From the IMG/VR virus record IMGVR_UViG_2711768068_000024: 43,439 nt of DNA. The stretch is one strand, 5' to 3'. The notes under the pieces were generated by a model. That model was not told the origin of the DNA, did no database searches, and saw nothing but the letters and a program-made list of their open reading frames with translations. This stretch comes from a virus. Lineage: Duplodnaviria > Heunggongvirae > Uroviricota > Caudoviricetes. Position numbers and translations under genes: made by a program. This document shows positions 1-43,439 of this stretch, piece by piece (positions within the stretch are counted from its first letter, which is position 1; each line of letters begins with the position of its first letter).

Positions 1-483
1 ATGACGAAGAAAAAAGCACATAAACCTGGTTCAGCGACCATCGCGCTTAACAAGCGCGCCCGTCACGAATACTTTATCGAAGAAGAGTTCGAAGCGGGAC
101 TTGCCCTGCAAGGCTGGGAGGTTAAATCCCTGCGCGCAGGAAAAGCCAATATCAGCGACAGCTACGTCCTTCTGCGTGACGGAGAGGCATTTCTGTTTGG
201 CGCTAACATCACGCCAATGGCCGTGGCCTCCACGCATGTGGTGTGCGATCCTACCCGTACCCGCAAGTTACTTCTCAACCAACGCGAACTGGACTCATTG
301 TACGGTCGCGTCAATCGAGAAGGCTATACCGTAGTGGCGCTCTCCCTGTACTGGAAAAATGCCTGGTGCAAAGTGAAAATCGGCGTCGCCAAAGGTAAAA
401 AACAGCACGATAAACGTTCAGATATCAAAGAACGCGAATGGCAGGTGGATAAAGCACGTATCATGAAAAACGCCCACCGTTAA
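1..483 (+). CDS. smpB: SsrA-binding protein SmpB
   Basis: 160-aa ORF recognisable end to end as SmpB ([28 protein letters not shown]...); sits directly upstream of tmRNA as in enterobacteria. Confidence 0.95.
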
Positions 484-697
484 ACCTGCACTCCAATTAT
501 TGACCAGTTCCTCACCGCGCCTCCCTCTCCGGCGGCGCGAATGAACATCTTATTGGCTATCACATCCGACACAAATGTTGCCATCCCATTGCTTAATCGA
601 ATAAAAATCAGGCTACATGGGTGCTAAATCTTTAACGATAACGCCATTGAGGCTGGTCATGGCGCTCATAAATCTGGTATACTTACCTTTACACATT

Positions 698-1060
698 GGG
701 GCTGATTCTGGATTCGACGGGATTTGCGAAACCCAAGGTGCATGCCGAGGGGCGGTTGGCCTCGTAAAAAGCCGCAAAAAATAGTCGCAAACGACGAAAA
801 CTACGCTTTAGCAGCTTAATAACCTGCTTAGAGCCCTCTCTCCCTAGCCTCCGCTCTTAGGACGGGGATCAAGAGAGGTCAAACCCAAAAGAGATCGCGT
901 GGAAGCCCTGCCTGGGGTTGAAGCGTTAAAACTTAATCAGGCTAGTTTGTTAGTGGCGTGTCCGTCCGCAGCTGGCAAGCGAATGTAAAGACTGACTAAG
1001 CATGTAGTACCGAGGATGTAGGAATTTCGGACGCGGGTTCAACTCCCGCCAGCTCCACCA
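698..1060 (+). ncRNA. ssrA: tmRNA (SsrA), ~363 nt
   Basis: Begins GGGGCTGATTCTGGATTCGACGGG, contains the tag reading frame GCAAACGACGAAAACTACGCTTTAGCAGCTTAA (ANDENYALAA*), ends GGTTCAACTCCCGCCAGCTCCACCA. Confidence 0.95.
1016..1060. repeat. attL: 45-bp direct repeat (ssrA 3' end), left prophage junction
   Basis: ATGTAGGAATTTCGGACGCGGGTTCAACTCCCGCCAGCTCCACCA occurs identically at ~38005-38049; flanks diverge immediately outside both copies. Confidence 0.85.
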
Positions 1061-1070
1061 AATAAATCAA

Positions 1071-1103
1071 GGGGTTACGTGAAAGCGTAGCCCCTTTTTC
1101 TTT
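1071..1103 (+). terminator. Hairpin + T-tract just after tmRNA CCA end (phage-supplied ssrA terminator)
   Basis: GGGGTTACG-tgaaag-CGTAGCCCC followed by TTTTTCTTT. Confidence 0.5.
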
Positions 1104-1118
1104 GGTAGTGGCGGCAAA

Positions 1119-1157
1119 ATGGCGACAGACTTTTGCGTCCATCTTGCCTGTCGCCAT
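1119..1157. promoter_or_regulatory. 10-bp perfect inverted repeat (ATGGCGACAG ... CTGTCGCCAT, 19-bp spacer) upstream of the BRCT gene; candidate operator
   Basis: Palindrome arms read directly; lies ~30-65 bp upstream of the 1184 start codon; no T-tract so not a terminator. Confidence 0.3.
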
Positions 1158-1183
1158 CTTGAAATCATGCAAAGAGGTTTCAC

Positions 1184-1666
1184 ATGGAAGAACTTCACTT
1201 TGTTTACATCAATGCAAATGGTCGTATCGGTGTTCACTCTATACAGAGCATCAGTTATAGCGAAAATCATATACAGGGCATTTGTAAGAACACCGATCGA
1301 ATAAAAACCTTCCGAAAAGACCGCATTCTTAAACAATACGATTCACCAGAACAAGCCATTCAGGAATGCGCGTCATTCCTCCCCGAAAACTACTCACATC
1401 TCACTAAGCAGTCTGGTCCGAAAAAAAATACATTCGATGTGTGTTTCACCGGATTTAAGAAAGCAGATAAAAAAAGATTGGTTGATAAGGCGAATGAACA
1501 AGGATTAACGGTAAGAACCTCTGTAACCCAAAGCCTTCAGATGCTCTGTTGCGGTTACAATGCAGGCCCATCAAAAGTATCGGCAGCCAGGATGAAAGGC
1601 ACAATCATCATAGATGAGCCTGGCTTTATACATTTTCTTGAAACGGGTGAGATCCCAGATGAATAA
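1184..1666 (+). CDS. Small protein with C-terminal BRCT-like domain, function unknown
   Basis: 160-aa ORF with AAAGAGG RBS 8 nt upstream; C-terminal ~80 aa (FDVCFTGFKKADKKRLVDKANEQGLTV...GTIIIDEPGFIHFL) matches the BRCT pattern known from NAD-ligase C-termini; AT-rich. Confidence 0.6.
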   Translation: MEELHFVYINANGRIGVHSIQSISYSENHIQGICKNTDRIKTFRKDRILKQYDSPEQAIQECASFLPENYSHLTKQSGPKKNTFDVCFTGFKKADKKRLVDKANEQGLTVRTSVTQSLQMLCCGYNAGPSKVSAARMKGTIIIDEPGFIHFLETGEIPDE

Positions 1667-1692
1667 AAACCTGCCGTAGCAGGTTCTCTTTC

Positions 1693-10790: not shown

Positions 10791-11192
10791 TTAATCTCCA
10801 AAAGCAATCCAGTAAGCAAAAGGATTTATTCCTTGCTCAGTCACAGATGACATTAGGGAAAATTGCGATGGTGAAACAGGTAACGCTGCAAAACTAACCA
10901 TTGTTGACACACCTGACCGTGCATTATCGTACGATGCAACAACACAATAATTGGTATTGCTGAAAGATATCGGCAGGGTGATATTTACAGGTGAGCCTAA
11001 TGGCCCTGATGCTGATATTCCCATTTGAATGATGGTTCCATCAGGCAATTTTCTCCAGCGATTAGAACTCGGATTTCTTTTCCAGGCTGACATATCCGGT
11101 ATCTGATTTTCTCCTGTGCCTACATCCCTTTTCGCCGCTTCTCCCAAACCAACGTTTATGAAAATGCAGAGATAACGGCTAACTGGCATCAT
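10791..11192 (-). CDS. Tail-fibre C-terminal cassette carrying the native continuation of H (..[11 protein letters not shown]...PVNITLPISF...AFGD)
   Basis: Shares 173 bp with the 3' end of gene H (12414..12586), then continues 62 codons past the point where H is cut short. Confidence 0.6.
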   Translation of the reverse strand: MMPVSRYLCIFINVGLGEAAKRDVGTGENQIPDMSAWKRNPSSNRWRKLPDGTIIQMGISASGPLGSPVNITLPISFSNTNYCVVASYDNARSGVSTMVSFAALPVSPSQFSLMSSVTEQGINPFAYWIAFGD

Positions 11193-12413: not shown

Positions 12414-13634
12414 GATATTTACAGGTGAGCCTAATGGCCCTGATGCTGATATTCCCATTTGAATGATGGTTCCATCAGGCAATTTTCTCCAGCGATTAGA
12501 ACTCGGATTTCTTTTCCAGGCTGACATATCCGGTATCTGATTTTCTCCTGTGCCTACATCCCTTTTCGCCGCTTCTCCCAAACCAAGGTATGTGAGAAGA
12601 CCAGCTACATCCTTTCCACTCAAATTAGTCAGCGTATTGTCCAGCGGTTGTTTACCTGCCAGCGCATTAAGCATTGTCGTGGCAAAGTTCGGGTCATTCC
12701 CCAGCGCCGCCGCCAGTTCGTTCAATGTATCCAGTGCCGCAGGTGCAGAACCCACCATTCCTGCAATCGCCGATTTCACAAAAGCCGTAGTGGCAATCTG
12801 TGTATTGTTGACCGACTGTGCCGCAGTAGGTGCTGTTGGCGTTCCGGTAAGTGCCGGACTCGACAGCGGCGCTTTCAGTGCCAGCGCATTATTAATAGTG
12901 GTACTGAATTTCGGGTCATTGTTAATGGCTGCGGCAATTTCTTTCAGTGTGTCCAGCGTGGCTGGCGCACCGTTAATCAGAGCAGTAATAGCGGCCTGAA
13001 CAAACTCTGTGGTCGCAATCCGAGTGGTGTTATTTCCTGCTGCAGGCGTCGGCGCTTTTGGTTCTCCGGTAAATGTCGGATTATGTTTCTGCGCATACTG
13101 GGTATGAGGATCTTGTGCGGCAATGTGGTTTCTCATCTGGTCATCCACATACAGCTTTAATTCCAGGACTTTATCATCCACGTATTTACGGGTTGCCAGC
13201 ACTACAGCAGGGTCGATTTTCAGGATGATATTGTCCGTGCTGCTGGTAATCAGCACCATGCGCACGGTCTGGGTACGCCCGCTGCCTTCAGCCAGTTGCG
13301 GCTTATAGCTTTCCGGGCAGTTTCCCACGGCAATCAATGCCCCGGACTCATCAAACAGGCCCACTTCACGTATCCACCAACCGCCCTCGTTTTCAGGGAT
13401 CACCTGTTCAGCAATAATCTGGCTACTGTTCTGCGGGTCGATATAAAGCATATTCAACGCAGCCCGGCGTTTCTCATTTACCAGTGCCGTCTGCTTTGCG
13501 TCCGGCGTCGGTAATACTCCGCCGCCATCGCCGACCGCCATATGGGTAATTTTTAGCGGCACACCGAGCGCGGCGGCGCTGGCAAGTTTCGCCGCGCCAA
13601 TATCCGTCAGCAGGGTATAAAATTTTGTGCTCAT
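12399..13634 (-). CDS. Tail fibre protein gpH (constant N-terminal part; C-terminus cut by the junction)
   Basis: N-terminus [21 protein letters not shown]...MAVGDGGG is P2 H-like; ends ...PVNISAIR* where the last 4 codons come from the junction sequence. Confidence 0.85.
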
Positions 13635-25585: not shown

Positions 25586-26326
25586 TTACTCAATAGGTTC
25601 AAACTCATCCTGAGGAATCAGCGTCGATTGACAGGCTTGGCTTAGTACTCCTGATAATTTACATAATAACCGATAGTTATGAGGAGCATCATCGCTAATC
25701 TTTTCGACCGTTAAAGTGATTGATTTTGGATCATCCAATAACATCTTCTTGATATCATTACTTAAATACCTAGGGCAGTAACCAACGATTTCAGCTGGTT
25801 TATCTGCACGAACGACAACAGCATCCCCATCGTATTCATTTTGAAGATCCAAGCAAAGACGCAAAATTTGCCCCGGTTTCAATTCAGATACACGAGCATT
25901 AGCTAAGCTATTTAAGTAACCAAGTCCATGTAAGAAGAAAAAATGCTCAAAGTTACCATCAGAATCAACATCAATTTTTTTGAAAATCTGCAGCTGATCA
26001 GTGCTTCGTAAGCCTCCCGAGCGAGCAAGAATATCGATAGGATTTACCTTATCTTCTTCAAATCCAAGCCATTTAATGAAACTCGGATACTCTGGACGTC
26101 TCGGTGATAAAAGGCGATTTTTAAAAAGAGGAAACAATTCTTCCGAAACATAAGTTTCACGAACATCACTCATGCCGCTAAACTTTGTAAATTTAGTAGA
26201 TTTAAGAGCACCTTTGGTATACCTGAAAACATACCCCGATTTGCGCTCTTGCAAGTTACCAACAACATGCCAGTCTCTGGTATCTGGTGCCTGCCATGCG
26301 ACGTAAACGGAGTTTGTATTAGTCAT
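25586..26326 (-). CDS. HipA-N-terminal-like domain fused to HIRAN-like domain
   Basis: 246 aa; N-terminus VYVAWQ..VVGNL..YVFRY..ELFPLFKNRLL resembles the HipA N-terminal subdomain; C-terminus ILRLCLDLQNEYDGDAVVVRADKPAEIVGYCPRYL fits the HIRAN pattern; 4-nt overlap with the upstream kinase gene. Confidence 0.55.
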   Translation of the reverse strand: MTNTNSVYVAWQAPDTRDWHVVGNLQERKSGYVFRYTKGALKSTKFTKFSGMSDVRETYVSEELFPLFKNRLLSPRRPEYPSFIKWLGFEEDKVNPIDILARSGGLRSTDQLQIFKKIDVDSDGNFEHFFFLHGLGYLNSLANARVSELKPGQILRLCLDLQNEYDGDAVVVRADKPAEIVGYCPRYLSNDIKKMLLDDPKSITLTVEKISDDAPHNYRLLCKLSGVLSQACQSTLIPQDEFEPIE

Positions 26327-27237
26327 TCTAGTAACCTTCTGCGATTTTCCATTACCATTAACGTTGCAAATCTACGTGCACTGTCGGATATACACGATGA
26401 AGGCACTTGGTTAAACACATCTGTAATGGAATCTTCTGTTAAAACGCTCAACTTACCTAACCAATGGTCGCGAGCGGCAACTCTCCCTTCAACTGCATGT
26501 TGAAATGCTTCAACGGTCAGCAAGGGCTTTTTATCAGTTTTTGCTTTGAATAGCTCAGAGCGAGCTTTTCTTACAAAACATGGGATTTGTCGATTTTTAT
26601 CTTTAGTATTAAGCCGTTCGTTACGCTCATCATCTAACATCTCCCTTCCTAAACTAGCGGCATGATCGTATGTTGGACACAAAAACTGCTCACCAGTTTC
26701 ATTGTTAAGCATGATCGCCCAATTTTCATGATGGCGATCTTGATTACTCACAAGTGCATCGAGCATCAAATATCCACAAAATACATCTGCTGCATTTAGC
26801 CCGGTTAGATCATATACACTCGGAGGAGGCTTGATAGATTCCCTATCCAAACAACCCAATACCCTTGTGACAGTGTGTTCTCTGACCCTTACCGGCTTTT
26901 CCCCGGCTTGTAAAGGCCCAGGATAATCGAATGTCGAACTGTGAAGCACTTCATTTCCCATTACCATCCGGAAACCAGATGGAATGATATTCTGAGTCAC
27001 CACACCGAATCGACCATTGTATCGCGCCAAATCATAGCTAGCATGTGGAATGTTAAGCAAATGACATAACTCAGCAGCACACTTTTCAGACCAATGCTCG
27101 CCAGTACCTGGCCTAGAGTACTTAAACAACTGCAAATTTACAGTGTCATCGGAGAAATAGAACCAAAACTTCTCTTTGGTTCCTAACTGTTCAAGATCGT
27201 TAGCTACGGGGCTAAGCTCTACCAATTGGTATGGCAT
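26323..27237 (-). CDS. HipA-like Ser/Thr kinase core (HipT-like, no N-terminal domain)
   Basis: 304 aa; GTKEKFW (P-loop-like), LVSNQDRHHENWAIM (catalytic loop, compare HipA GATDGHAKNFS), PTYDHAASL (metal-binding YD). Confidence 0.7.
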   Translation of the reverse strand: MPYQLVELSPVANDLEQLGTKEKFWFYFSDDTVNLQLFKYSRPGTGEHWSEKCAAELCHLLNIPHASYDLARYNGRFGVVTQNIIPSGFRMVMGNEVLHSSTFDYPGPLQAGEKPVRVREHTVTRVLGCLDRESIKPPPSVYDLTGLNAADVFCGYLMLDALVSNQDRHHENWAIMLNNETGEQFLCPTYDHAASLGREMLDDERNERLNTKDKNRQIPCFVRKARSELFKAKTDKKPLLTVEAFQHAVEGRVAARDHWLGKLSVLTEDSITDVFNQVPSSCISDSARRFATLMVMENRRRLLE

Positions 27238-27845: not shown

Positions 27846-28814
27846 GTGGGATCTTTCAGTTTACTTGCATCACGACCAATACCAACTGTGCTAGAAACAA
27901 GACAGTTTAACTCAGTTAACGGCAGTGACGCCGAATCTTATGCAATGAGTCAATTCATTCTTGCTTGTAGAGGAGAGGGGCACTGGGGTTCCAGGGAAGA
28001 CGACAATTCAAAAATAGATTTAATATTATCCTTCGAACATCCATGGGCATCAAAAGAAAGAATGCTTATATTATCGCAAGTTAAATCAGGGGCAACTTAT
28101 GGTCATTTATTAGAGAAAGGTTTTGTATTAAATTCGGCCGCAAAAAAAGCAGCCAAAAGGACAACTCACCATATATGTGTCGTTTGGGTTGACAGAACTA
28201 ATCGTAAAGCATTTTGGGCCTATATACATCCAAACACTACCCTTAAAAACCAAACTTATGGAGAATATCACTTAATCACTCCGGCCACACGGTTTGACCT
28301 GGCTCGCTGTATGTCCATGGTACGTGCAGGTGAAACTGGAGCAAAAGGAATCCATGTAAGAAGAAGAAACTCACTACTTAATAATCGGCGAGCGTTTGTT
28401 AAAAAACGTTATTCTGAACAGAAAGAAATCACATCTCCGGTGCTTGGGAAAATCGAGCTTACACGGCTGGGTTGGAGACATATGTTCAGAAAGAGTCGCA
28501 GAGAAGAAAACAAAGCAACGAGTTTGGACATTATTCCCTACTTGAGAAATTTACTAGTTCGGTTTCCTTCAACTCATGCTATTACTTCTTCTGATGTCCG
28601 TGATTACGGCTGTTTTACTTACCAAAGAAGAGAGCACTTATTGAAATTTAATAATCTAGAGGTTACTTATGCCAAAGGAGAGGGAAAAAATAAAGTATGT
28701 GCTTATATTCGTGTTATAGAAGAAATAAGGTATCCAAAAGATTGGACTAACGCGGTAATGCTATCACAGCAGGTTGAAAGACGAGTGGTTTTGAAGTCAG
28801 CATATTATAAATAA
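27846..28814 (+). CDS. Hypothetical cargo protein at the tin/old-equivalent position (between cos and gene A)
   Basis: 322-aa AT-rich ORF with GTG start preceded by GGAGAG; basic C-terminal half; weak nuclease-like motif (KIDLILSF ... LSQVK), not confidently assigned. Confidence 0.6.
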   Translation: MGSFSLLASRPIPTVLETRQFNSVNGSDAESYAMSQFILACRGEGHWGSREDDNSKIDLILSFEHPWASKERMLILSQVKSGATYGHLLEKGFVLNSAAKKAAKRTTHHICVVWVDRTNRKAFWAYIHPNTTLKNQTYGEYHLITPATRFDLARCMSMVRAGETGAKGIHVRRRNSLLNNRRAFVKKRYSEQKEITSPVLGKIELTRLGWRHMFRKSRREENKATSLDIIPYLRNLLVRFPSTHAITSSDVRDYGCFTYQRREHLLKFNNLEVTYAKGEGKNKVCAYIRVIEEIRYPKDWTNAVMLSQQVERRVVLKSAYYK

Positions 28815-29398
28815 CGAGGCCGTTGGGAAGCCAGCACTTGCGCCCATGCTCTGCCAGATTCCGGTTTCGAATCGGTTCTCTGGCAATAATGCGGATAGCG
28901 TACTGGGCATCAGCCTTAGCTTTTGCACTCAACCCAACGACCAAGTGATGAAGCATACTAGTAAAGAAACTTTAATTCTAGATGTTTTGAAGCAATTCTC
29001 ACATCAAGTATTAATTTTTCTAAAGCAATGACCTAATGGTATGTCAGGTTTCAACGAAAATTGGCAACCAATCTAGATAACTGTACCTTTTCAAAAAACT
29101 GGTGCGTATCGTTAGTCTCCTTTCGCCGTTGTTCCAGTCTGGTCGCTTCAATAAAAAGCAAGGCCGCCGTACAGCGAAACTATATAATCATAGCTTAAGC
29201 CAAATCACTCATCTAAGGTGTGGCTCCATTAGTAGTTTGAGCGCTAACAGCCCCTCTGGCGATAAAACTACTCAATACCTGGCACGAAGCAAAATCTGGA
29301 AGTTACTATTTTTTTCCCATGACTAACGCCTCGCATGGCTCGTTGATCAACCTTGCTAGCGTCAGAATCAAGTCCTAACGCCAGCAACGTTTCTAAGC

Positions 29399-29587
29399 CT
29401 AACCGGGGAGATCCATTGAACGGTTGTACTCATGAGTACGGATTTTCGCCATTAACTCATCGGTCAGCTCCGAAACCCACTGGATAGCAAGCCGCTTCTC
29501 TTCATCATCGCACTCACTAGCCGCTACAAGCTTAAGAAAAAAATCAATGCGCTGGAGCTTCAAAGACTCCAAAAAATAGTCCTGCAT
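29399..29587 (-). CDS. Hypothetical small protein downstream of A
   Basis: 62-aa ORF in the orf91-like position; weak support. Confidence 0.3.
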   Translation of the reverse strand: MQDYFLESLKLQRIDFFLKLVAASECDDEEKRLAIQWVSELTDELMAKIRTHEYNRSMDLPG

Positions 29588-29741
29588 CTTTCCTCCTATG
29601 ACACCACACGCAATACTGTATGTATAACCACTGTTTATATTTACAGTATATAATAATCTTACTGATGTAAAACGTTTTTTTTACGCTTATCAGCCTGATA
29701 TGCCTGATATTATTAAGAGCACGAATTGTTAACCAGCGTAA

Positions 29742-35201: not shown

Positions 35202-35834
35202 ATGATACATGTAAAGGTTGGAGAGAATACAGGGGGAAGAGAGGCTATCCATAGACTAATGGCAGCCTATGATTTCAAGTCCAGACAGCAACTTTGCGAT
35301 CACTTAGGCGCATCAAAAAGCACCATGGCAAACAGATACTTAAGAGATAGTTTTCCTGCAGAGTGGGTGATTCAGTGCGCCTTGGAAACAGGAGTTTCTT
35401 TACTGTGGCTAACCACCGGACAGGGGGAGCCAGGTTCAAACATTGAACCCCAAAAAAATATCAATTCCGTGAACTCCAGCAAGGTTATACCTCTTTCTGA
35501 ACTAGTATCTCCTGAAATTGACAAGGCGACTCTCAACGGTGGTTTATTGATCGATGCTGGAAAAGCAATCATTGATAGCAGCATACTCCCCTCAGACTCA
35601 AGCAACCTACTGCTGGTGACTACTTCTGGTGATTCTTATTTAATAGATCGCAACCAAACACCACCAGTAAATGGTATGTGGTTAGTCGATATCGACGGGA
35701 TAAAAAGCATTGTTAAATTGACTCGACTCCCGGGAAACAAATTAGTAGTACATCAGGATGATTCATCGTTTGAGTGTGGCCTAGATGACATTGAGGTAGT
35801 AGGCCGCGCACTGAAAATCATTAAGAGCCTTTGA
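35202..35834 (+). CDS. cI: Immunity repressor CI (186-type, N-terminal HTH)
   Basis: 210 aa; HTH segment QQLCDHLGASKSTMANRYLR; immediately followed by int on the same strand as in 186. Confidence 0.75.
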   Translation: MIHVKVGENTGGREAIHRLMAAYDFKSRQQLCDHLGASKSTMANRYLRDSFPAEWVIQCALETGVSLLWLTTGQGEPGSNIEPQKNINSVNSSKVIPLSELVSPEIDKATLNGGLLIDAGKAIIDSSILPSDSSNLLLVTTSGDSYLIDRNQTPPVNGMWLVDIDGIKSIVKLTRLPGNKLVVHQDDSSFECGLDDIEVVGRALKIIKSL

Positions 35835-35835
35835 T

Positions 35836-36852
35836 ATGACCATCAGAAAACAGCCGAACGGAAAATGGTTGTGTGAGTGCTATCCCAATGGACGCAATGG
35901 TAAGCGCGTGCGTAAGCAATTTGCTACGAAAGGCGAAGCCATTGCTTTTGAAAGCTTCACAATGGAAGAAGTGAATAAAAAACCGTGGTTGGGTGAAAAG
36001 GATGATCGGCGACGCCTATCAGAATTAATTGAGCTTTGGTATTCCCTGTATGGTCAGACACTCGCAGACCCCAAGCGCCTCATGGCGAAACTTAGAATTA
36101 TCTGTAATGGTCTAGGCGACCCCATCGCCTCAGAACTGACAGCCGGTGACTTTACGAAATACCGCGAAGCACGGTTAAAAGGTGACGTTCGTAACGAAGA
36201 CGGCACACTAATGTCGCCAGTAAAACCACGCACGGTGAATCTTGAGCAACGTAACCTATCATCGGTTTTTGGCACATTGAAAAAACTAGGCCACTGGTCA
36301 GCACCAAATCCTCTCGCCGGGCTGCCAACATTTAAAATCGCTGAGGGGGAACTGGCGTTCCTGACCTCGGAAGAAATTAAACGTCTGCTAGATGCCTGCG
36401 CTGATTCTCAAAACCCCAGTCTGCTTTTGATTGCAAAAATATGCCTGGCCACCGGCGCACGCTGGAGTGAAGCCGAAAACCTGCAGGGCCATCAGTTATC
36501 TAAATACCGCATCACTTATACCAAGACGAAGGGTAAGAAAAACCGCACCGTGCCGATATCTCAAGATCTGTATGACGAACTCCCCAAGAACAGAGGGAAG
36601 CTATTCACCCCGTGCAGAAAAGCCTTTGAACGAGCAGTAAAGCGAGCTGGCATCGAGCTGCCAGAGGGCCAATGCACTCACGTGCTACGTCATACATTCG
36701 CCAGCCATTTTATGATGAATGGCGGAAACATACTGGTGCTGCGCGATATTCTGGGCCATGCCGATATAAAAATGACGATGATCTATTCTCATTTTTCACC
36801 AGAACACTTAGAAGATGCAGTAACTAAGAATCCTTTAAATTATATTGAGTGA
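35836..36852 (+). CDS. int: Tyrosine integrase (P2/186 family)
   Basis: 338 aa; C-terminal catalytic region (..HVLRHTFASHFMMNGG..LRDILGHADIKMTMIYSH) with the R...H-x-x-R...Y pattern; adjacent to attR. Confidence 0.9.
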   Translation: MTIRKQPNGKWLCECYPNGRNGKRVRKQFATKGEAIAFESFTMEEVNKKPWLGEKDDRRRLSELIELWYSLYGQTLADPKRLMAKLRIICNGLGDPIASELTAGDFTKYREARLKGDVRNEDGTLMSPVKPRTVNLEQRNLSSVFGTLKKLGHWSAPNPLAGLPTFKIAEGELAFLTSEEIKRLLDACADSQNPSLLLIAKICLATGARWSEAENLQGHQLSKYRITYTKTKGKKNRTVPISQDLYDELPKNRGKLFTPCRKAFERAVKRAGIELPEGQCTHVLRHTFASHFMMNGGNILVLRDILGHADIKMTMIYSHFSPEHLEDAVTKNPLNYIE

Positions 36853-37919
36853 AAATCATGTTAAGTGATACTTGTTATACAGTGATTTATATTGCAGCAA
36901 TCGTTTTATTAGTATTTATTACAATAGTAAAAAAATGGTACATGCTTGATAAAAGAAATTTATTTCGTCAGAAATTATTTTGGATTTCAGTTTTAACACC
37001 TTTATTTTCCTTTATCTATTTTGGTTTTTTCACATGGTGGGGAAAAGAACCAGTACTCTCCGCACATGGCTATTCAAGATTTTACGAAATAAGCAAATTC
37101 CCTCTACTATTGCTAGCTAGTGCAGTTCCTTTGGCTTCGATCGTCAACAATATACATCGCACTATACAAACCGAAGCTCAGATCAACACCGCTGAAACGA
37201 AAAATGCAGTCGATAGATATTTAGCACATGAGAAAAACTTTATTGAGAAAACAAAGGAAATATTCGCCTACAATCTTCAAAGCGCGAGAGACTCAGATGG
37301 AAACCTCATTAAATTCAATGGCGAACCAAATATCACTTTGTTTACAGCAGATGAAATTAAAATTTCCAACCCATATCTTTTATATACAAAAATATACAAC
37401 AAATCAAATATAGAGACCACATCTAACTTCACCGCAAACCCTGATTTTTTAGTGCAATTAAAGGAGTACTTAAACACAATTAATAATACTCTGTCGGTTC
37501 AACACTCTATAGATGAATATAATCCATTAAGTTACATGATTCGACTTAACACTTTGTCATATAATACAGCCTCGTTATTAGACCTGATATGTACATCCCC
37601 CATATCTCATGTATACTGTTTGATAAAATATGATGGGTATCAATTAAAAACATTTACACTTGAAGAACAAGTATTCGCCGATATTTTAGAAATATCATAT
37701 CTTCTATCAAGAAAACTAATTCGTTTGATATATAATGAAGATATACCACATTACGACAACATTTATAATTACTTATATGTTGGTAAGTTGAGGTTTAAAT
37801 TCAGAAAACACGCCAATTCTTTACAAGCATTTTCTTCGCAGGAATGGGCTGATTACGTTTCTGAAGCACTAACTCTAGTTCCTAACGAAGTTGGCGGCAC
37901 TTTGGCGGCAGCGCATTAA
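36849..37919 (+). CDS. Membrane-anchored cargo protein of unknown function between int and attR
   Basis: 356-aa very AT-rich ORF (GTG at 36849 or ATG at 36858); three predicted N-terminal TM helices then an Asn/Tyr/Ile-rich soluble domain. Confidence 0.65.
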   Translation: MKIMLSDTCYTVIYIAAIVLLVFITIVKKWYMLDKRNLFRQKLFWISVLTPLFSFIYFGFFTWWGKEPVLSAHGYSRFYEISKFPLLLLASAVPLASIVNNIHRTIQTEAQINTAETKNAVDRYLAHEKNFIEKTKEIFAYNLQSARDSDGNLIKFNGEPNITLFTADEIKISNPYLLYTKIYNKSNIETTSNFTANPDFLVQLKEYLNTINNTLSVQHSIDEYNPLSYMIRLNTLSYNTASLLDLICTSPISHVYCLIKYDGYQLKTFTLEEQVFADILEISYLLSRKLIRLIYNEDIPHYDNIYNYLYVGKLRFKFRKHANSLQAFSSQEWADYVSEALTLVPNEVGGTLAAAH

Positions 37920-38004: not shown

Positions 38005-38049
38005 ATGTAGGAATTTCGGACGCGGGTTCAACTCCCGCCAGCTCCACCA
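38005..38049. repeat. attR: second copy of the 45-bp ssrA 3'-end repeat
   Basis: Identical to 1016..1060; followed by a hairpin/T-tract and then the P4-type integrase gene, i.e. the original ssrA 3' flank. Confidence 0.85.
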
Positions 38050-38172: not shown

Positions 38173-39444
38173 ATGGGACCCATTAAGAAGGGTCCAAAAA
38201 CCGAGGGTCCCAAAATGGCAAAAATCGCTAAGAAGCTCACTGACACTGAAATCAAAAGCACCAAGCCAGCCGATAAAGAAATCAACTTGTTTGACGGTGA
38301 TGGTCTGATTCTACGAATCGCTCCTTTGGCGAAAGGAGGCAAGAAAAATTGGTATTTCAGGTATGCAGTACCAGTGAGCAAGAAAAGAACCAAAATGAGC
38401 CTTGGGACATATCCTCACCTTACCCTTGCAAGAGCCAGAGCCTTACGTGATGAATATCTCTCCTTTCTGGCAAATGGTGTTGATCCCCAAATCCATAACA
38501 ACGATAAGGCGAAGGCATTAAAGAGTGCTACTGAGCACACTCTCCAAGCCGTAGCGCGGAAATGGTTAGATGAGAAGGTAAAGACATCAGGTATCTCACA
38601 AGACCATGCAGCAGACATCTGGCGCAGCTTAGAGAGAAATGTCTTTCCCGGTCTGGGTAATGTCCCTATCAATGAGATCCGACCTAAGCTCTTAAAACAA
38701 CACCTTGATCCTATTGAGCAACGAGGCGTATTGGAAACTCTACGCCGTATCATTTCACGTCTGAATGAAATCTTCCGGTGGGCAGCTACTGAAGAACTTA
38801 TTGAGTTCAACCCGGCTGACAACCTTGGTCAAAGATTCAGTAAACCAAAAAAGCAAAATATGCCTGCCCTTCCCCCAAGCGAATTGCCAAGGTTTATGGA
38901 ATCTTTGACGAATGCGTCAATCCGGTTGGAAACACGTATGCTAATTGAATGGCAATTGTTGACATGGGTTCGTCCGGGTGAAGCCGTTCGCGCAAGGTGG
39001 TCTGATATTGATACAACCAACAGCATTTGGAACATTCCTGCTGATTTCATGAAAATGAAAAAGCTTCACAAAGTTCCTTTGAGTAAAGAAGCTTTGCGCA
39101 TCCTTGAATTAATGAAATCAATAAGTGGGCATAGAGAATGGGTTTTCCCCAGCATAAAAGCGCCTCTTAATCATATGCATGAACAAACAGCCAACGCAGC
39201 TATCATCCGAATGGGGTTCGGAGGCGAGCTTGTAGCTCACGGTATGCGTTCTATTGCACGAACAGCGGCAGAGGAGTCTGGTAAATTCAGAGCTGAAGTT
39301 CTTGAGGCAGCGCTTGCCCACTCGAAAAAAGATGAAATTATCGCAGCATACAATCGTGCAGAATATCTGATAGAGCGACAGAGTTTGATGCAATGGTGGA
39401 GTGATTACGTTCAAGCTCAAAGATCAAATGCTCTGGTAGCCTAA
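38173..39444 (+). CDS. intA: P4-type tyrosine integrase (IntA/CP4-57 family)
   Basis: 423-aa track ORF; N-terminal KLTDTEIKSTKPADKEINLFDGDGLILRI is the P4-integrase arm-binding pattern; true start may be the Met at 38215. Confidence 0.85.
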   Translation: MGPIKKGPKTEGPKMAKIAKKLTDTEIKSTKPADKEINLFDGDGLILRIAPLAKGGKKNWYFRYAVPVSKKRTKMSLGTYPHLTLARARALRDEYLSFLANGVDPQIHNNDKAKALKSATEHTLQAVARKWLDEKVKTSGISQDHAADIWRSLERNVFPGLGNVPINEIRPKLLKQHLDPIEQRGVLETLRRIISRLNEIFRWAATEELIEFNPADNLGQRFSKPKKQNMPALPPSELPRFMESLTNASIRLETRMLIEWQLLTWVRPGEAVRARWSDIDTTNSIWNIPADFMKMKKLHKVPLSKEALRILELMKSISGHREWVFPSIKAPLNHMHEQTANAAIIRMGFGGELVAHGMRSIARTAAEESGKFRAEVLEAALAHSKKDEIIAAYNRAEYLIERQSLMQWWSDYVQAQRSNALVA

Positions 39445-39482
39445 GTATCAGAATAGCTAATATAATCCTGAAGGTAAAGAAA

Positions 39483-39899
39483 ATGGAAACCCTATTCAAA
39501 GTTTTTGAAAAATTTAGTTCCAGACCACTTTTTTTTATTTTTTTCGGACTCTCACTTTGTGAATTTTTTCAGAAACAATCTGTTCTGATGAATCCATCAG
39601 CAGATAACATCGCGAAATTATTCGCAGCCATGATATTAGTTGTTTTTTTTACTTGGGGATTTGAATGGCTAATCTTCAAGTTCAATGTAAACCTTGAACC
39701 TCATGATCAAGGCGATATTGGACCAACAATTGGAACGGCTACTTTAGCTGTATACTTAGTTTATGCCTTTCACTTTCTCAGTGAAAATCCTGAAGCATTA
39801 AATTTAAAGTTATTAACTAACTCTGGCTTTATATACAGCACAACTCTATTATTATTCTCATTAGAATGCATGAAGCTTAGAAGACTTAAACAAAAATAA
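39483..39899 (+). CDS. Small multi-pass membrane protein, unknown function
   Basis: 138-aa ORF with about four hydrophobic segments; AT-rich; convergent with the kinase/receiver operon. Confidence 0.5.
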   Translation: METLFKVFEKFSSRPLFFIFFGLSLCEFFQKQSVLMNPSADNIAKLFAAMILVVFFTWGFEWLIFKFNVNLEPHDQGDIGPTIGTATLAVYLVYAFHFLSENPEALNLKLLTNSGFIYSTTLLLFSLECMKLRRLKQK

Positions 39900-39970
39900 A
39901 CAACATCATTGTGATGATAAATATAAAATAGGCATGGCGAAAAAAAATCACCACGCCTAAAATATAATAA

Positions 39971-41737
39971 TTATGGTAGCATCATTGATACATAATCCAC
40001 ACCAATCCTTGAGCTATACTGAGACGCTATAGCCTGATATCTTTCTGCATAACCAGTTCTCAGTTGAGATTTAAGTTTGAGTCGGACAGGAACATTTTGC
40101 ACGTTGCCATCCATATTACTTAAAAACACGGCAGAAATAATATTTTTTTCTTCGCCATCAACTGTTGTTCCATGATTCAACACCACCATATAATCAACAA
40201 CAGGAAGCGTTTTATCCCCTTCGAAAATAGAGAGATATTTTCTTTGATTTTTATGCATTACATATATATATTTCGAATGTTCAGCAAATGGCAATGCTTT
40301 ACTCTGACTGGCGTTAAAAAGCTCCAGAACTTTAATGAGCCTGTGCGGACTTAATCTTACATGGTGAGGGTCGTTACCCTGAGTAGGAACCAAATCACAT
40401 GCCGCAGATACACATAAATACCATTTGTTCGACTCTGTATCAAAGAAAATAGTGCCAGTAGAAATATGACCATCTTCAAAATTCTTTGAAGACAAATTCA
40501 TATTTAAAGCATGATACATTTCGTGATAAGTATCATTATTTGATGGCAGATCCATTTTTGAAGAGCAATATTGGAGCAATGCAGCAACTCCGCTGTTAGC
40601 GTATTCATTTGAATAGCTATCAAAAACACTTTTGATAAATTCATCCAGCGTATTATTATTTTTAAGTCTTTGATAAAGCTCTTCTGATAAATTACCAAAT
40701 ACAAAGTCAATATTTCTACATCTAATATCAGGCGAGTCTGATTTTAATATCTCATTTAACCACGCAGCTTGACCGTAATGATCGTTAGCCAAATGATTTA
40801 CAAAAGATAAAGCCTCAGCTTCGATTGCATTCTGAATTTCAGATTTTATTAACTGATAATAAGATGGTTTCCATTCAATGAGAGAATCATTGAGAGTTTG
40901 CCAAATCCTATCTCCATCGTTTTCATGATCATCTTGAACCTTATGAAATAGGGAGACAAAGATATTACCACATTGAATCCATTTTACTCCGCTTTCATCA
41001 CCCCGAATGACATTGCCAGATGTGTTGCTAGAAATAATTGCATTTCTAGACACAGCATATTCTGCAATCATTTTTGCAATGAAGTTTTTATCCTTTTGAT
41101 CCTCCAACACAGCATCATCATGTATTAATCTTTTAATTCTTCTACAAGGCTTACTGTCTTTAATATAGGCTATTGTTTCATCTCTTGTGAGAGCTTTATT
41201 ACCATTATCATTTAAGTTCGGTAATACAACGTCTTCCCAATAACTTTGGACATCTTCATTATCGTAGTCAATGATCAAGCTGTTGATATCCAGAGCACCT
41301 TTGAGAGTCGATGATATCTGCATCCAAACCGTTTCTAAATTCTCTCTAGTATATATTACAATCATATTTAAATGATCGGAGTCTTTCAAATCTTGTAATA
41401 GTTTAAGTGTTTTATCAGGTGCATTATTATCAAGATGATAATCTACAATAATAAGATCTGATTTTCTAATCCGATCCACATCGAAATTAACAGAACCATT
41501 GTCAACATCACAAATCATATTTTTAGATTGAAAAAAGCTCTCAAGAGTAGCGGCTCGTTTAGATGAGTCAATTTTGTTGTAGTCTAAATCAACTTCGTTA
41601 TTCAACGCCCTGATTGATTCAGAATACGTCAGAAAATCGTCATCAATCATGACAACGGAACGAATTGCATTTTCGCAGAAAGTTTTCTGGACAAGAGAAT
41701 TATAATTTGCCACTGTCATATTAGAACTCCACTCCAT
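39971..41737 (-). CDS. Receiver (REC)-like domain fused to a large uncharacterised C-terminal domain
   Basis: N-terminal ~140 aa show receiver hallmarks (VVMIDDD, DLIIVDYHLD, MIVIYT); ~430 further aa unassigned; more likely start is the RBS-preceded ATG at 41719, 1 nt after the kinase stop. Confidence 0.65.
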   Translation of the reverse strand: MEWSSNMTVANYNSLVQKTFCENAIRSVVMIDDDFLTYSESIRALNNEVDLDYNKIDSSKRAATLESFFQSKNMICDVDNGSVNFDVDRIRKSDLIIVDYHLDNNAPDKTLKLLQDLKDSDHLNMIVIYTRENLETVWMQISSTLKGALDINSLIIDYDNEDVQSYWEDVVLPNLNDNGNKALTRDETIAYIKDSKPCRRIKRLIHDDAVLEDQKDKNFIAKMIAEYAVSRNAIISSNTSGNVIRGDESGVKWIQCGNIFVSLFHKVQDDHENDGDRIWQTLNDSLIEWKPSYYQLIKSEIQNAIEAEALSFVNHLANDHYGQAAWLNEILKSDSPDIRCRNIDFVFGNLSEELYQRLKNNNTLDEFIKSVFDSYSNEYANSGVAALLQYCSSKMDLPSNNDTYHEMYHALNMNLSSKNFEDGHISTGTIFFDTESNKWYLCVSAACDLVPTQGNDPHHVRLSPHRLIKVLELFNASQSKALPFAEHSKYIYVMHKNQRKYLSIFEGDKTLPVVDYMVVLNHGTTVDGEEKNIISAVFLSNMDGNVQNVPVRLKLKSQLRTGYAERYQAIASQYSSRIGVDYVSMMLP

Positions 41738-43439
41738 TGAACTGGATCACAAAATTAGCGCCATCTTTTATTAAATAGTTATCGCCTTCATCAGGTTCTG
41801 AATACCATATTTTATGATGTGCAACAGCAAGGTTTTCTCGACATAGATACAGACCTACCCCATGTCCATTTGCTCTTTTGCTATAAAATAGTTCAAATAG
41901 TCGCGGGATATCATCGGTATCAATTGCCGGACCAGAATTTGCTATGATAACCAAAGAATTCACAAAACCAATCTTTATGAGCCTATTATTTGACAGACTG
42001 ACCCAATACATTGCATTGTTGATAATATTAGTAAAAACAGGATAGATCCTTGATGGTATATCTGTTATTGCGATTTGCTTAAACTCTTCACTAAATTCAA
42101 TAGTTATTCGTTGCCGTTCGAAACGCTCCCCAAAGAACTTCAGGACATAATCCATGATATTTTTTCCAGTTATTCTCTGCCTGGATTGATAACCTGATAT
42201 TTTCAAAGGTGATAAGAAACGTATTTGTTGAGTAAGCGATCTGTGAGCATTTAACGCCAATGAAAAACCAGGGTGTTCTTTTACAGAAGTAGGAAGAGAG
42301 TTTAGTCCTCTGGTTACCATAGAATCCATTTCTTCAAGTTCATGAGATATTATCTCAACACTAATACCTAACTGTGCAAGCGCGTTTAAACTTTTAGCTT
42401 TTTCTTCAAAATATGAGCGTTCTTCTTCAGATAATGAGAATGCTGAATCTAAGTTTATACCTTCAAATAATCCATCGAGACCTTTTATTATTGATTGATA
42501 TTTGAAAGTTAGGGTATCAACTGACTCAACATATAAACTATCGAGCAAATTAAACACATTTTCAATTTGTGAATCATTATCTATTGAATCAACAACTGAT
42601 ATAGTTTTAGCATAATAATCACTTCGATCAACCTTTATTTCATCGGCCCATTTTTTTAAAAGAGAATGTATCTTCTCCTCTATCGTGTTATTAAACTTAG
42701 TTAGTTTAGAATTAATAATACCTTGATTTTTTTCAAGGTGATTTTTCGCTGACAATGAAGGCTCAAGTTTATTTAATTCAGAATCAAGTTTATTAATTGC
42801 TAACTTCATTTGTAGAATATACGCAGAGAACTCATTAAATTTATCTCTGTAGTCTCTATATTTCTCTTCATACATTCCAAGTTTTGGAGGTTTGATAGGC
42901 GTTTTAATTTCACTGCGCAACGCATCTAAGTTTGTAAGATCACTGTCTATAATTTTAAGATAGTTTAAATCTAACGAACCATCAGTTTTATCAAGCTTAG
43001 TTTTCAGCCTTTTAACAGCCTCCAAGGAAGCATCAAGAACTGGTGTCTGATTCTTCAAAGCTTCTGAAAAACTTTTTTGTGTTGATTTTCGAGCTTGTTG
43101 TTGAGCAGATTTTCTTAACTCTTTTTCACGCTTAACTTGTTCTAAAAGCTCTTTACGGTCATCAGAACGTGAACCAAAAAATCTATCAGCAAGTTCAGTT
43201 AACAAATTAGATATAATAGTTTTCAGTTCTCTTGCAGCCTGGTTTCTTATGAATCCCTCTCTCCCCGACTTATCTTTCAGCTCTTTATTACTGGATTGAG
43301 TAATTCCAATATAACCAAAAATCCTTCTATTAGACCAATAATATCGCCCTGCATTCCATGAACGTCTTTCTTCTATCTGGAAGAAATCATTATCTACTCG
43401 ACCATAAGGTAATACTCTCAAGCTATCCCTAAAAATCAT
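41721..43439 (-). CDS. Histidine-kinase-like protein (H-box + HATPase_c), 5' end probably outside the window
   Basis: ISHELEEMD (H-box), FTNIINNAMYW (N-box), NSGPAIDTDD and GHGVGLYL (G-boxes) in canonical order at the C-terminus; long K/E-rich N-terminal region without TM segments; ORF open to the window edge. Confidence 0.75.
   Translation of the reverse strand: MIFRDSLRVLPYGRVDNDFFQIEERRSWNAGRYYWSNRRIFGYIGITQSSNKELKDKSGREGFIRNQAARELKTIISNLLTELADRFFGSRSDDRKELLEQVKREKELRKSAQQQARKSTQKSFSEALKNQTPVLDASLEAVKRLKTKLDKTDGSLDLNYLKIIDSDLTNLDALRSEIKTPIKPPKLGMYEEKYRDYRDKFNEFSAYILQMKLAINKLDSELNKLEPSLSAKNHLEKNQGIINSKLTKFNNTIEEKIHSLLKKWADEIKVDRSDYYAKTISVVDSIDNDSQIENVFNLLDSLYVESVDTLTFKYQSIIKGLDGLFEGINLDSAFSLSEEERSYFEEKAKSLNALAQLGISVEIISHELEEMDSMVTRGLNSLPTSVKEHPGFSLALNAHRSLTQQIRFLSPLKISGYQSRQRITGKNIMDYVLKFFGERFERQRITIEFSEEFKQIAITDIPSRIYPVFTNIINNAMYWVSLSNNRLIKIGFVNSLVIIANSGPAIDTDDIPRLFELFYSKRANGHGVGLYLCRENLAVAHHKIWYSEPDEGDNYLIKDGANFVIQFNGVEF

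What the first reader, a model, noticed from the sequence alone, without database searches (positions are those of the whole stretch)
1119..1666. Small BRCT-domain protein with an upstream palindrome at the attL-proximal end
The first prophage gene after attL encodes a 160-aa protein whose C-terminal half resembles a BRCT domain; the N-terminal ~80 aa are unassigned. It is preceded by a perfect 10-bp inverted repeat with a 19-bp spacer that could be an operator. The gene sits where 186 carries the SOS-controlled antirepressor tum, but the protein shows no DinI/Tum-like sequence and I found no canonical LexA box, so it seems to be a different cargo gene. BRCT modules bind phosphorylated proteins or DNA ends.
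Basis: partly seen in the sequence, partly recalled or inferred. Interest (0 to 1): 0.45.

Follow-up and report, generated by a model that had tools for sequence, protein, structure and literature searches.

The report
Prophage WYL–BRCT protein beside integrase sites
The first gene of this prophage encodes a small uncharacterised protein made of two nucleic-acid-reading modules (WYL and BRCT), which many temperate phages place right after their repressor gene; the palindrome upstream of it is made of integrase binding sites, not an operator.

Summary
The ORF (1184-1666, +, 160 aa) and the perfect 10-bp inverted repeat (1119-1128 / 1148-1157, 19-bp spacer) are both real.

**The palindrome.** It is two opposed copies of TGGCGRCA, the published 186-type integrase arm-site motif. 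Tandem direct pairs of this motif, 11 bp apart, flank both att cores. The right arm is not conserved in 70%-identical relatives. It is therefore attP P'-arm architecture, not an operator.

**Context.** In 20 of 52 related loci the gene lies directly downstream of a CI-type repressor on the same strand. In the E. coli lineage the phage-form order is cI-int-cargo-attP-gene. The tum-equivalent position is elsewhere, at a LexA box (29629-29648).

**Function (inferred, about 35%).** A lysogeny-module accessory protein that binds ss/ds DNA junctions or 5'-phosphate ends of invading DNA and so excludes other phages.

The parts
1016..1060 (.). attL core: 45 bp identical to the attR core, and also the 3' end of ssrA
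   Evidence: Direct repeat family D2; tmRNA gene at 698-1060.
1069..1096 (+). Intrinsic terminator (12-bp stem followed by a T-run). It is supplied by the phage and lies between the att core and the gene in both prophage and phage forms.
   Evidence: Terminator scan. The same sequence is present in the attP of phage Cartapus.
1109..1127 (+). Two tandem direct copies of the 186-type Int arm-site motif: TGGCGGCA at 1109-1116 and TGGCGACA at 1120-1127, 11 bp start to start (P'1, P'2).
   Evidence: Conserved in all relatives aligned. The reverse complement TGCCGCCA matches the published consensus tgccGCCActt (PMC3448106).
1149..1156 (-). Third copy of the arm-site motif, in inverted orientation. 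This is the right arm of the palindrome and is specific to the E. coli lineage.
   Evidence: Absent in L005-L009 and L012. One lineage has a third copy in direct orientation instead.
1171..1177 (+). Shine-Dalgarno sequence AAAGAGG, 6 nt before the ATG
   Evidence: Read from the sequence.
1184..1666 (+). CDS of the 160-aa WYL-BRCT protein (stop codon included)
1184..1408 (+). WYL (Sm-like five-stranded beta-barrel) domain plus two helices, residues 1-75. Invariant or near-invariant residues: Y8, T42, F43, R44, D46.
1427..1648 (+). BRCT domain, residues 82-155, of the RFC1/LigA subclass. T89, G90, F91, G124 and K131 are invariant.
1668..1685 (+). Terminator-like hairpin between the gene and the convergent ogr gene (1693-1911/1956, minus strand)
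37892..37910 (+). P-arm pair of the same motif on the attR side: TGGCGGCA twice, 11 bp start to start, 95-113 bp before the attR core
   Evidence: The same layout is seen in Cartapus attP.
38005..38049 (.). attR core
35202..37919 (+). Lysogeny operon that precedes the gene in the circular phage form: 186-type cI (35202-35834), int (35836-36852) and the cargo gene orf356 (36849-37919)
   Evidence: The phage-form order cI-int-(cargo)-attP-gene is seen in Cartapus and in Yersinia phage MLG42.

Best explanation
**What it is (shown).** The gene encodes a real, conserved 160-aa protein with two domains and no catalytic or helix-turn-helix module.
- The N-terminal domain is a WYL beta-barrel, the fold that PafBC, DriD and CapW use to sense single-stranded DNA.
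- The C-terminal domain is a BRCT of the RFC1/LigA subclass with an intact Thr-Gly...Lys phosphate pocket. The isolated RFC1 domain of this subclass binds recessed 5'-phosphate DNA ends.
- It is an accessory gene of the lysogeny module of temperate phages. In P2/186-like and lambdoid prophages of many Proteobacteria it sits immediately downstream of the repressor gene on the same strand, often just upstream of int.
- In the E. coli lineage the phage-form order is cI-int-cargo-attP-terminator-gene. After integration into ssrA it therefore becomes the first gene after attL.
- The upstream 'palindrome' is part of the P' arm of attP: two tandem plus one inverted 186-type integrase arm-binding site. 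It is not an operator.

**How it works (inferred).** In lysogens the protein reads a DNA structure that combines single-stranded DNA with a 5'-phosphate duplex end. Candidates are cohesive ends of an injected phage genome, gaps, or resected or rolling-circle intermediates. By capping or sequestering that structure it excludes or hampers superinfecting phages. This would be a non-enzymatic counterpart, by position, of the rex and sie genes of other prophage immunity operons. The membrane-anchored relatives would do the same at the site of DNA entry.
For: **Real gene and family.**
- PHROG 2561 matches over the full length at 3.9e-77.
- 121 homologues were found, with purifying conservation.
- A profile search gave 206 clusters (at 50% identity) at E<=1e-30.

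**Folds.**
- The full-length model has pLDDT 91.9.
- Pfam WYL and BRCT hits are above threshold in relatives.

**BRCT subclass and pocket.**
- The family profile hits RFC1 at 2.5e-5 and LigA at 3e-5, with FTG and AGPxK aligned.
- T89, G90 and K131 are invariant in 48 sequences.
- The isolated RFC1 BRCT binds recessed 5'-phosphate DNA with a Kd of about 10 nM (PMC9293004).
- WYL domains of CapW and DriD bind ssDNA (PMC11662680).

**Context.**
- A CI-type repressor, either 186-type or S24-peptidase type, lies directly upstream on the same strand in 20 of 52 loci.
- The same arrangement is seen in L055, with a 2-bp gap, in Mannheimia PHL101 and Vibrio PV94, and in a lambdoid Pseudomonas phage.
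- The phage-form order is confirmed in Cartapus and MLG42.

**Accessory status.** Present in 28 of 50,697 phage records and 170 of 5426 E. coli genomes.

**Membrane link.** About 30% of the family representatives examined carry 1-3 predicted N-terminal transmembrane helices.

**Palindrome.**
Against: - No experiment or paper addresses this family.
- No effector domain or conserved partner gene was found, and the fused extensions have no Pfam assignment.
- The family is not in PADLOC as a whole. Only the BRCT part matches the candidate PDC-S48.
- The two arginines that flank the WYL motif and contact ssDNA in CapW (RWHVR) are not conserved here; the window protein reads N-HIQ-G. The ligand of the WYL domain is therefore unverified.
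- The protein is only mildly basic (pI 8.25) and each domain is close to neutral, which is weak for a DNA binder.
- In this window no promoter of consensus quality lies between the terminator (1069-1096) and the start codon, so expression in the lysogen is not established.
Confidence: 0.4

Rival explanations
1. DNA-damage or induction modulator. The protein is co-expressed with the repressor and binds ssDNA gaps or 5' junctions, the substrates on which RecFOR loads RecA. This would damp or tune RecA* and SOS signalling, and with it spontaneous prophage induction. Alternatively it could couple damage sensing to the switch.
For: The tight operonic linkage is to cI of two unrelated types, S24-cleavable and 186-type. 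The closest WYL structures are all DNA-damage or ssDNA sensors (PMC11662680). The BRCT subclass reads 5' junctions at gaps (PMC9293004).
Against: There is no HTH or other output domain. About 30% of relatives are membrane-anchored, which is hard to reconcile with acting at chromosomal gaps. In this prophage SOS control appears to run through a separate LexA-box gene. No interaction with CI or RecA has been tested.
Confidence: 0.2
2. Helper of the phage's own DNA transactions. The protein would bind the phage's 5'-protruding cohesive ends or nicked or gapped intermediates, protecting them or promoting circularisation. Alternatively it could act as an accessory factor of Int at att sites.
For: The gene is adjacent to int and attP in many lineages. 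The domain pair fits a 5'-phosphate single-stranded overhang.
Against: It is absent from most P2-like phages; Fels-2, for example, is not among the 28 matching records, so it is not needed for the core life cycle. It is transcribed with the repressor rather than with early lytic or late genes. It also occurs outside P2-like phages, including islands with Mrr and methylase genes.
Confidence: 0.15
3. Anti-defence decoy. The phage protein would mimic host sensing modules, either soaking up the ssDNA signal that de-represses WYL-controlled systems (CapW/CBASS, BrxR/BREX) or competing with the LigA BRCT domain.
For: It has the same fold as the CapW and BrxR sensor domains and the same BRCT subclass as LigA. 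It is phage-encoded and small.
Against: The CapW ssDNA-contact arginines are not conserved. Sequestering abundant ssDNA stoichiometrically is implausible. The gene sits in a lysogeny operon rather than among early lytic genes.
Confidence: 0.08
4. One reading: a cargo gene controlled by an operator palindrome, occupying the tum position of phage 186.
For: The perfect 10-bp inverted repeat lies 26 nt upstream of the start codon. The gene is indeed accessory.
Against: The palindrome arms are 186-type Int arm sites that also occur in the attR arm. The right arm is missing in relatives. A palindrome of this kind is expected by chance in 61% of random windows. tum maps elsewhere, and its equivalent here has the window's only LexA box.
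Confidence: 0.04

Closest known systems
wHTH-WYL-WCX regulators (PafBC, DriD, CapW, BrxR)
   Different: It has no wHTH and no WCX domain, so it cannot be a transcription factor of this kind. The WYL tripeptide reads HIQ, and the flanking ssDNA-contact arginines of CapW are absent. The output module is a BRCT domain instead.
BRCT domains of RFC1 (p140) and NAD-dependent DNA ligase LigA
   Same: These are the best sequence-profile matches (2.5e-5 and 3e-5). The fold is the same. The Thr-Gly and Lys phosphate-pocket positions are conserved.
   Different: Here the domain stands with a WYL domain in a 160-aa protein. There is no clamp-loader AAA+ module and no ligase adenylation or OB domain. The N-terminal helix that RFC1 needs for tight DNA binding was not examined. 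DNA binding is untested.
Lambda rexAB, sieB and other repressor-operon exclusion genes
   Same: The position matches: an accessory gene transcribed with, or right behind, the immunity repressor, and variable among related phages. Some relatives are membrane proteins.
   Different: There is no sequence or fold relationship. It is a single small protein without a known effector. An exclusion phenotype has not been shown.
attP arm-type sites of phage 186 and P2 integrases
   Same: [quoted passage not shown]
   Different: The E. coli lineage has an extra inverted third copy in the P' arm, which creates the palindrome. Binding by this Int has not been tested.
PADLOC candidate PDC-S48
   Same: It shares the same BRCT subclass at its C-terminus (E 3e-7 to 2e-13).
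   Different: The match covers only positions of about 325-406 of the 411-position model. The rest of PDC-S48 is unrelated, so this is not the same family.

Membership tests
BRCT domain (Pfam PF00533) | Sequence match to the family HMM above the gathering score | tested here: inconclusive
   The window protein scores 19.0 bits against a cutoff of 21.3. 42 of 48 family members match at E<=0.1. Relatives score above the cutoff, e.g. 34.9 and 54.3 bits.
BRCT domain (Pfam PF00533) | Beta-alpha-beta-beta-alpha-beta-alpha fold | tested here: met
RFC1/LigA-type phosphate-binding BRCT | Conserved Thr/Ser-Gly after beta1 and Lys at the start of alpha2, forming the phosphate pocket | tested here: met
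   T89, G90 and K131 are invariant in 48 sequences. They align with the FTG and AGPKK motifs of yeast Rfc1. That these positions form the pocket is established knowledge recalled from BRCA1 and RFC1 studies.
RFC1/LigA-type phosphate-binding BRCT | Binding to 5'-phosphorylated DNA ends or junctions | not testable with these tools
   This needs EMSA or anisotropy with purified protein. The property is documented for the isolated RFC1 domain (PMC9293004).
WYL domain (Pfam PF13280) | Sequence match to the family HMM | tested here: inconclusive
   The window protein has no hit. 10 of 48 members hit, best 1.5e-5. Relatives score above the cutoff, 27.5-28.6 bits against 21.8.
WYL domain (Pfam PF13280) | Sm-like five-stranded barrel most similar to solved WYL domains | tested here: met
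WYL domain (Pfam PF13280) | Canonical ssDNA-contact residues (arginines flanking the W-Y/H-L/V motif, as in CapW RWHVR) | tested here: not met
   The corresponding segment reads SxxHxQGIC without arginines (residues defined in PMC11662680). The R-x-F-R-x-x-R-I motif is kept, as K41-T-F-R-K-D-R-I48.
wHTH-WYL-WCX transcription factors | N-terminal winged helix-turn-helix DNA-binding domain | tested here: not met
   The WYL domain starts at residue 3. No HTH appears in Pfam or in the model.
NAD-dependent DNA ligase (label of PHROG 2561 and RefSeq phage records) | Adenylation domain, OB fold and zinc finger; full-length match to LigA models | tested here: not met
   The protein has only 160 aa. 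NCBIfam LigA models match only their C-terminal 50-105 positions, at 11-20 bits against cutoffs of 369-1051.
DEDDh exonuclease (label in phage Cartapus) | DnaQ-like exonuclease domain | tested here: not met
   Only positions 229-307 of the 331-position model (its BRCT tail) match, at 24.6 bits against a cutoff of 389.
Tum/DinI-type SOS antirepressor | LexA-box promoter, and a position at the right end of the 186-type genome | tested here: not met
   There is no LexA box near 1100-1183. The only one is at 29629-29648, upstream of a 62-aa ORF. The 186 p95-tum fragment lies at 28984-29538 of U32222.1.
Operator (regulatory palindrome) | Both half-sites conserved in relatives that keep the gene | tested here: not met
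   The right arm is replaced in L005-L009 and L012 and has a point mutation in phage 500465-1. One lineage has the third copy in direct orientation.
186-type Int arm-binding sites of attP | At least two direct repeats matching tgccGCCActt on each side of the core | tested here: met
   Sites at 1109-1116 and 1120-1127, and at 37892-37899 and 37903-37910, with 11-bp spacing. The layout is identical in Cartapus attP. The consensus comes from PMC3448106.
186-type Int arm-binding sites of attP | Binding by the N-terminal domain of the cognate integrase | not testable with these tools
   Needs footprinting or EMSA with the Int protein encoded at 35836-36852.
PADLOC PDC-S48 defence candidate | Full-length match to the model | tested here: not met
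   Only model positions 335-406 of 411 match. The same holds for longer relatives.

The most novel reading that the evidence does not exclude
A new kind of single-protein, non-enzymatic prophage exclusion factor encoded in repressor operons. A WYL domain reads single-stranded DNA and an RFC1-type BRCT domain reads the adjacent 5'-phosphate. Together they would cap the cohesive ends, or the gapped or rolling-circle intermediates, of superinfecting phages. In about a third of the family this module is tethered to the inner membrane by N-terminal helices. It would work in the same position as Rex or Sie but in one polypeptide. In the E. coli lineage, integration at ssrA additionally separates it from the cI-int operon.
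Probability: 0.15. Interest if true: 0.7.

Novelty: new variant of a known kind. Interest (0 to 1): 0.45.

Why it matters
- The family is widespread: 206 clusters at 50% identity, in P2/186-like and lambdoid prophages of Gamma- and Betaproteobacteria, and in about 3% of complete E. coli genomes.
- It is consistently mis-annotated as 'DNA ligase' or 'exonuclease', and nothing has been published on its function.
- Its fixed place right behind the immunity repressor, together with its pairing of an ssDNA-sensor fold with a 5'-phosphate-end reader, makes it a concrete candidate that can be tested cheaply. It could be a new prophage-encoded exclusion or damage-sensing function.
- The correction about the palindrome matters in practice. 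It defines the attP arms (P and P' sites) of ssrA-integrating 186-type phages and removes a false regulatory lead.

Tried and rejected
1. **Operator reading of the palindrome.** Rejected after aligning relatives, after finding the same 8-mer in tandem in both att arms, and after matching it to the published consensus.
2. **RNA structure reading.** The region 1097-1200 folds at -29.1 kcal/mol with a z-score of only -1.8, and the second arm is not conserved. Not pursued.
3. **LexA control.** There is no box near the gene.
4. **Sigma-70 promoter between terminator and ATG.** The tool scan found nothing. A permissive scan gave at best 8 of 12 matches with poor -10 elements.
5. **CI operator.** No copy of the palindrome half-site lies in the cI-apl intergenic region.
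6. **Ligase or exonuclease identity.** Rejected.
7. **Fusion partners as functional clues.** The N- and C-terminal extensions of 20 longer relatives, and a recurrent neighbour or fused domain (W.LP.AF.DAL..EGD), have no Pfam or PADLOC assignment.
8. **Literature searches.** Searches for WYL+BRCT+prophage, BRCT+P2-like, BRCT+anti-phage and PDC-S48 found nothing relevant, apart from one list mention of a WYL-BRCT fusion in Makarova et al. 2014.
9. **Sequence-only search of the N-domain profile against PDB.** It gave only insignificant PafBC/PafC hits (E 0.5-1.1). The fold search was needed.

Full report
**Setting**

The window opens with smpB (1-483) and the tmRNA gene ssrA (698-1060). A 45-bp sequence at 1016-1060 is repeated exactly at 38005-38049. 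These two copies are the attL and attR cores of a ~37-kb P2/186-like prophage integrated into ssrA.

The attL end carries ogr (1693-1911/1956, minus strand), D, U and T. The attR end carries, on the plus strand:
- a 186-type cI (35202-35834);
- int (35836-36852);
- a 356-aa membrane-protein gene (36849-37919).

A second, P4-type integrase follows attR.

**Checking the observation**

The ORF is 1184-1666 (+), 160 aa, with AAAGAGG six bases before the ATG. The inverted repeat ATGGCGACAG (1119-1128) / CTGTCGCCAT (1148-1157) is perfect, with a 19-bp spacer.

A palindrome of this size is not in itself unusual. The window has three such repeats, and 61% of Markov-1 random sequences of this length contain at least one.

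**The protein**

Sequence evidence:
- Pfam gives a sub-threshold BRCT hit for the window protein (19.0 against 21.3 bits).
- PHROG 2561 matches end to end (3.9e-77), under the misleading label 'DNA ligase'.
- NCBIfam ligase and DEDDh-exonuclease models match only through their C-terminal BRCT tails, at 11-25 bits against cutoffs of 369-1051. The ligase and exonuclease labels found in phage records are therefore wrong.
- A database search returned 121 homologues.
- An alignment of 48 of them shows Y8, T42, T89, G90, F91, L99, L121, G124 and K131 invariant.

Structural evidence:
- The AlphaFold model is confident (pLDDT 91.9).
- The family profile finds yeast and human RFC1 (2.5e-5) and LigA (3e-5) as the closest solved sequences. 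FTG aligns to T89-G90 and AGPKK aligns to K131. The phosphate pocket of this subclass is therefore retained.
- The isolated RFC1 BRCT binds recessed 5'-phosphate DNA tightly (PMC9293004).

- 10 of 48 members hit Pfam WYL.
- Longer relatives hit above threshold.

Caveats on the protein:
- The arginines that flank the WYL motif and contact ssDNA in CapW are not present here.
- The protein is only mildly basic.

Nucleic-acid binding is therefore inferred, not shown. A WYL-BRCT combination was listed, without comment, by Makarova et al. 2014 (PMC4012209). I found nothing else published.

**The palindrome**

Aligning the upstream region with relatives whose protein is about 70% identical (Erwinia, Klebsiella, Plesiomonas, Tatumella, Citrobacter) gives a split result:
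- the stretch GTGGCGGCAAAATGGCG(A/G)CAG is conserved;
- the right arm of the palindrome is not.

The conserved stretch holds two direct copies of TGGCGRCA, 11 bp apart (1109-1116 and 1120-1127). The same tandem pair occurs on the attR side (37892-37899 and 37903-37910). The right arm of the palindrome is a third, inverted copy (1149-1156). The 8-mer occurs 15 times in the window against 3.8 expected.

In the contiguous attP of Escherichia phage Cartapus the same layout flanks the core. One lineage carries the third copy in direct orientation.

The reverse complement, TGCCGCCA, matches the published arm-site consensus of 186-type integrases, tgccGCCActt. [quoted passage not shown]

The palindrome is therefore part of the P' arm of attP. 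The operator reading is not supported. No LexA box lies here, and the RNA fold of the region is unremarkable (z = -1.8).

**Context and expression**

In genuine phage genomes the order is cI - int - (cargo) - attP - gene, convergent with ogr and D (Cartapus; Yersinia phage MLG42).

More widely, 20 of 52 related loci have a CI-type repressor immediately upstream on the same strand. The repressor is either 186-type or S24-peptidase type. An int gene often lies downstream. Examples are:
- Mannheimia PHL101;
- Vibrio PV94;
- a metagenomic P2-like contig with a 2-bp gap;
- a lambdoid Pseudomonas phage.

The gene is absent from most P2-like phages: only 28 of 50,697 phage records carry it, and Fels-2, which that collection holds, is not one of them. 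It is present in 170 of 5426 complete E. coli genomes. It is thus an accessory gene of the lysogeny module.

In this lineage a strong intrinsic terminator (1069-1096) lies between the att core and the gene in both phage and prophage forms. I found no convincing sigma-70 promoter in the 87 bp that remain. How the gene is transcribed here is open.

**Family variation**

A profile search of 1.84 billion representatives gives 206 clusters at E<=1e-30. About 30% of the best 150 have one to three predicted N-terminal transmembrane helices in front of the WYL-BRCT module.

Others are fused or adjacent to an unassigned domain, or carry extra BRCT copies. None of the extensions has a Pfam or PADLOC assignment. 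PADLOC's PDC-S48 shares only the BRCT part.

**Mechanism**

Shown:
- the two folds;
- the conserved phosphate pocket;
- the lack of any catalytic or HTH domain;
- the repressor-operon position;
- the accessory distribution;
- the membrane-anchored relatives.

Inferred: the protein reads a DNA structure that combines a single strand with a 5'-phosphate duplex end, such as cohesive ends, gaps, or resected or rolling-circle intermediates. In lysogens it would cap or sequester such structures on invading DNA, and so act as an exclusion factor. I put this at roughly 35%. The structural and contextual description is near 90%.

Rival readings:

| Reading | Confidence |
|---|---|
| Modulator of RecA/SOS signalling and induction | ~20% |
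| Helper of the phage's own DNA-end or Int transactions | ~15% |
| Anti-defence decoy | ~8% |

**The tum comparison**

The 186 p95-tum fragment maps to 28984-29538 of the 186 sequence U32222.1 (PMC7708051). By my recollection of the 186 map, that is the far right end, near cos.

In this window the single near-consensus LexA box (29629-29648) overlaps a promoter-like sequence upstream of a 62-aa ORF (29399-29587, minus strand), just past replication gene A. That ORF is 93% identical to a Fels-2 ORF. Fels-2 is reported to carry a split tum (PMC3121763). This ORF, not the WYL-BRCT gene, occupies the tum-equivalent place.

**Verdict**

The feature is an uncharacterised and systematically mis-annotated WYL-BRCT protein family tied to prophage repressor operons. 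It is a new variant within known domain families. Interest is moderate (0.45), and would be higher if an exclusion or damage-sensing phenotype were shown.

Noticed in passing
window 29399-29648 (minus strand): The only near-consensus LexA box in the window is CACTGTTTATATTTACAGTA at 29629-29648. It overlaps a promoter-like TTTACA...TATACT about 40 nt upstream of a 62-aa ORF (29399-29587; phrog_698, function unknown). That ORF is 93% identical to a Fels-2 ORF. It is probably the short, split-tum-type SOS antirepressor of this prophage.
   Followed up: partly
window 25586-27237 (minus strand): Cargo lies between the portal gene Q and the replication gene A. A HIRAN-domain protein (245 aa, Pfam 1e-13) overlaps by 4 bp a 304-aa ORF (phrog_8728) with a HipA-like-looking NQDRHHENW motif (judged by eye, not tested). 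This may be a two-gene defence or toxin module in the classical P2 cargo hotspot.
   Followed up: partly
window 27846-28814 (+): A 322-aa ORF in the same hotspot has no Pfam or PHROG match at all.
   Followed up: partly
window 36849-37919 (+); L053 3508-4713: The slot between int and attP holds different cargo in near-identical phages. Here it is a 356-aa protein with N-terminal hydrophobic segments (phrog_17460). In phage Cartapus it is a RES-domain (NAD+-binding toxin-like) protein.
   Followed up: partly
window 38173-43439: A P4-type integrase gene starts 124 bp after attR, so a second island is inserted in tandem at ssrA. It is followed by two large ORFs on the minus strand (588 aa, and at least 572 aa running off the window) whose function I did not examine.
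   Followed up: no
L039, L044, L047; P0107, P0113-P0115 and about 45 of the 150 best representatives: Many WYL-BRCT homologues carry 1-3 predicted N-terminal transmembrane helices. In the Pasteurellaceae and Betaproteobacteria prophages the extended ORF exactly fills the gap after cI.
   Followed up: partly
L014 (-558..488 relative to the match), L015, L018 (+501..1097), L035 (+408..1397), L050: In marine metagenome-assembled genomes, an unassigned domain of about 150-250 aa with the motif W.LP.AF.DAL...(W)TQG...F.EGD is either fused to the N-terminus of WYL-BRCT or encoded next to it. It has no Pfam or PADLOC match.
   Followed up: partly
window 10980-11164 and 12414-12598: A 185-nt direct repeat at 98% identity, 1434 bp apart, in the late-gene region.
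   Followed up: no
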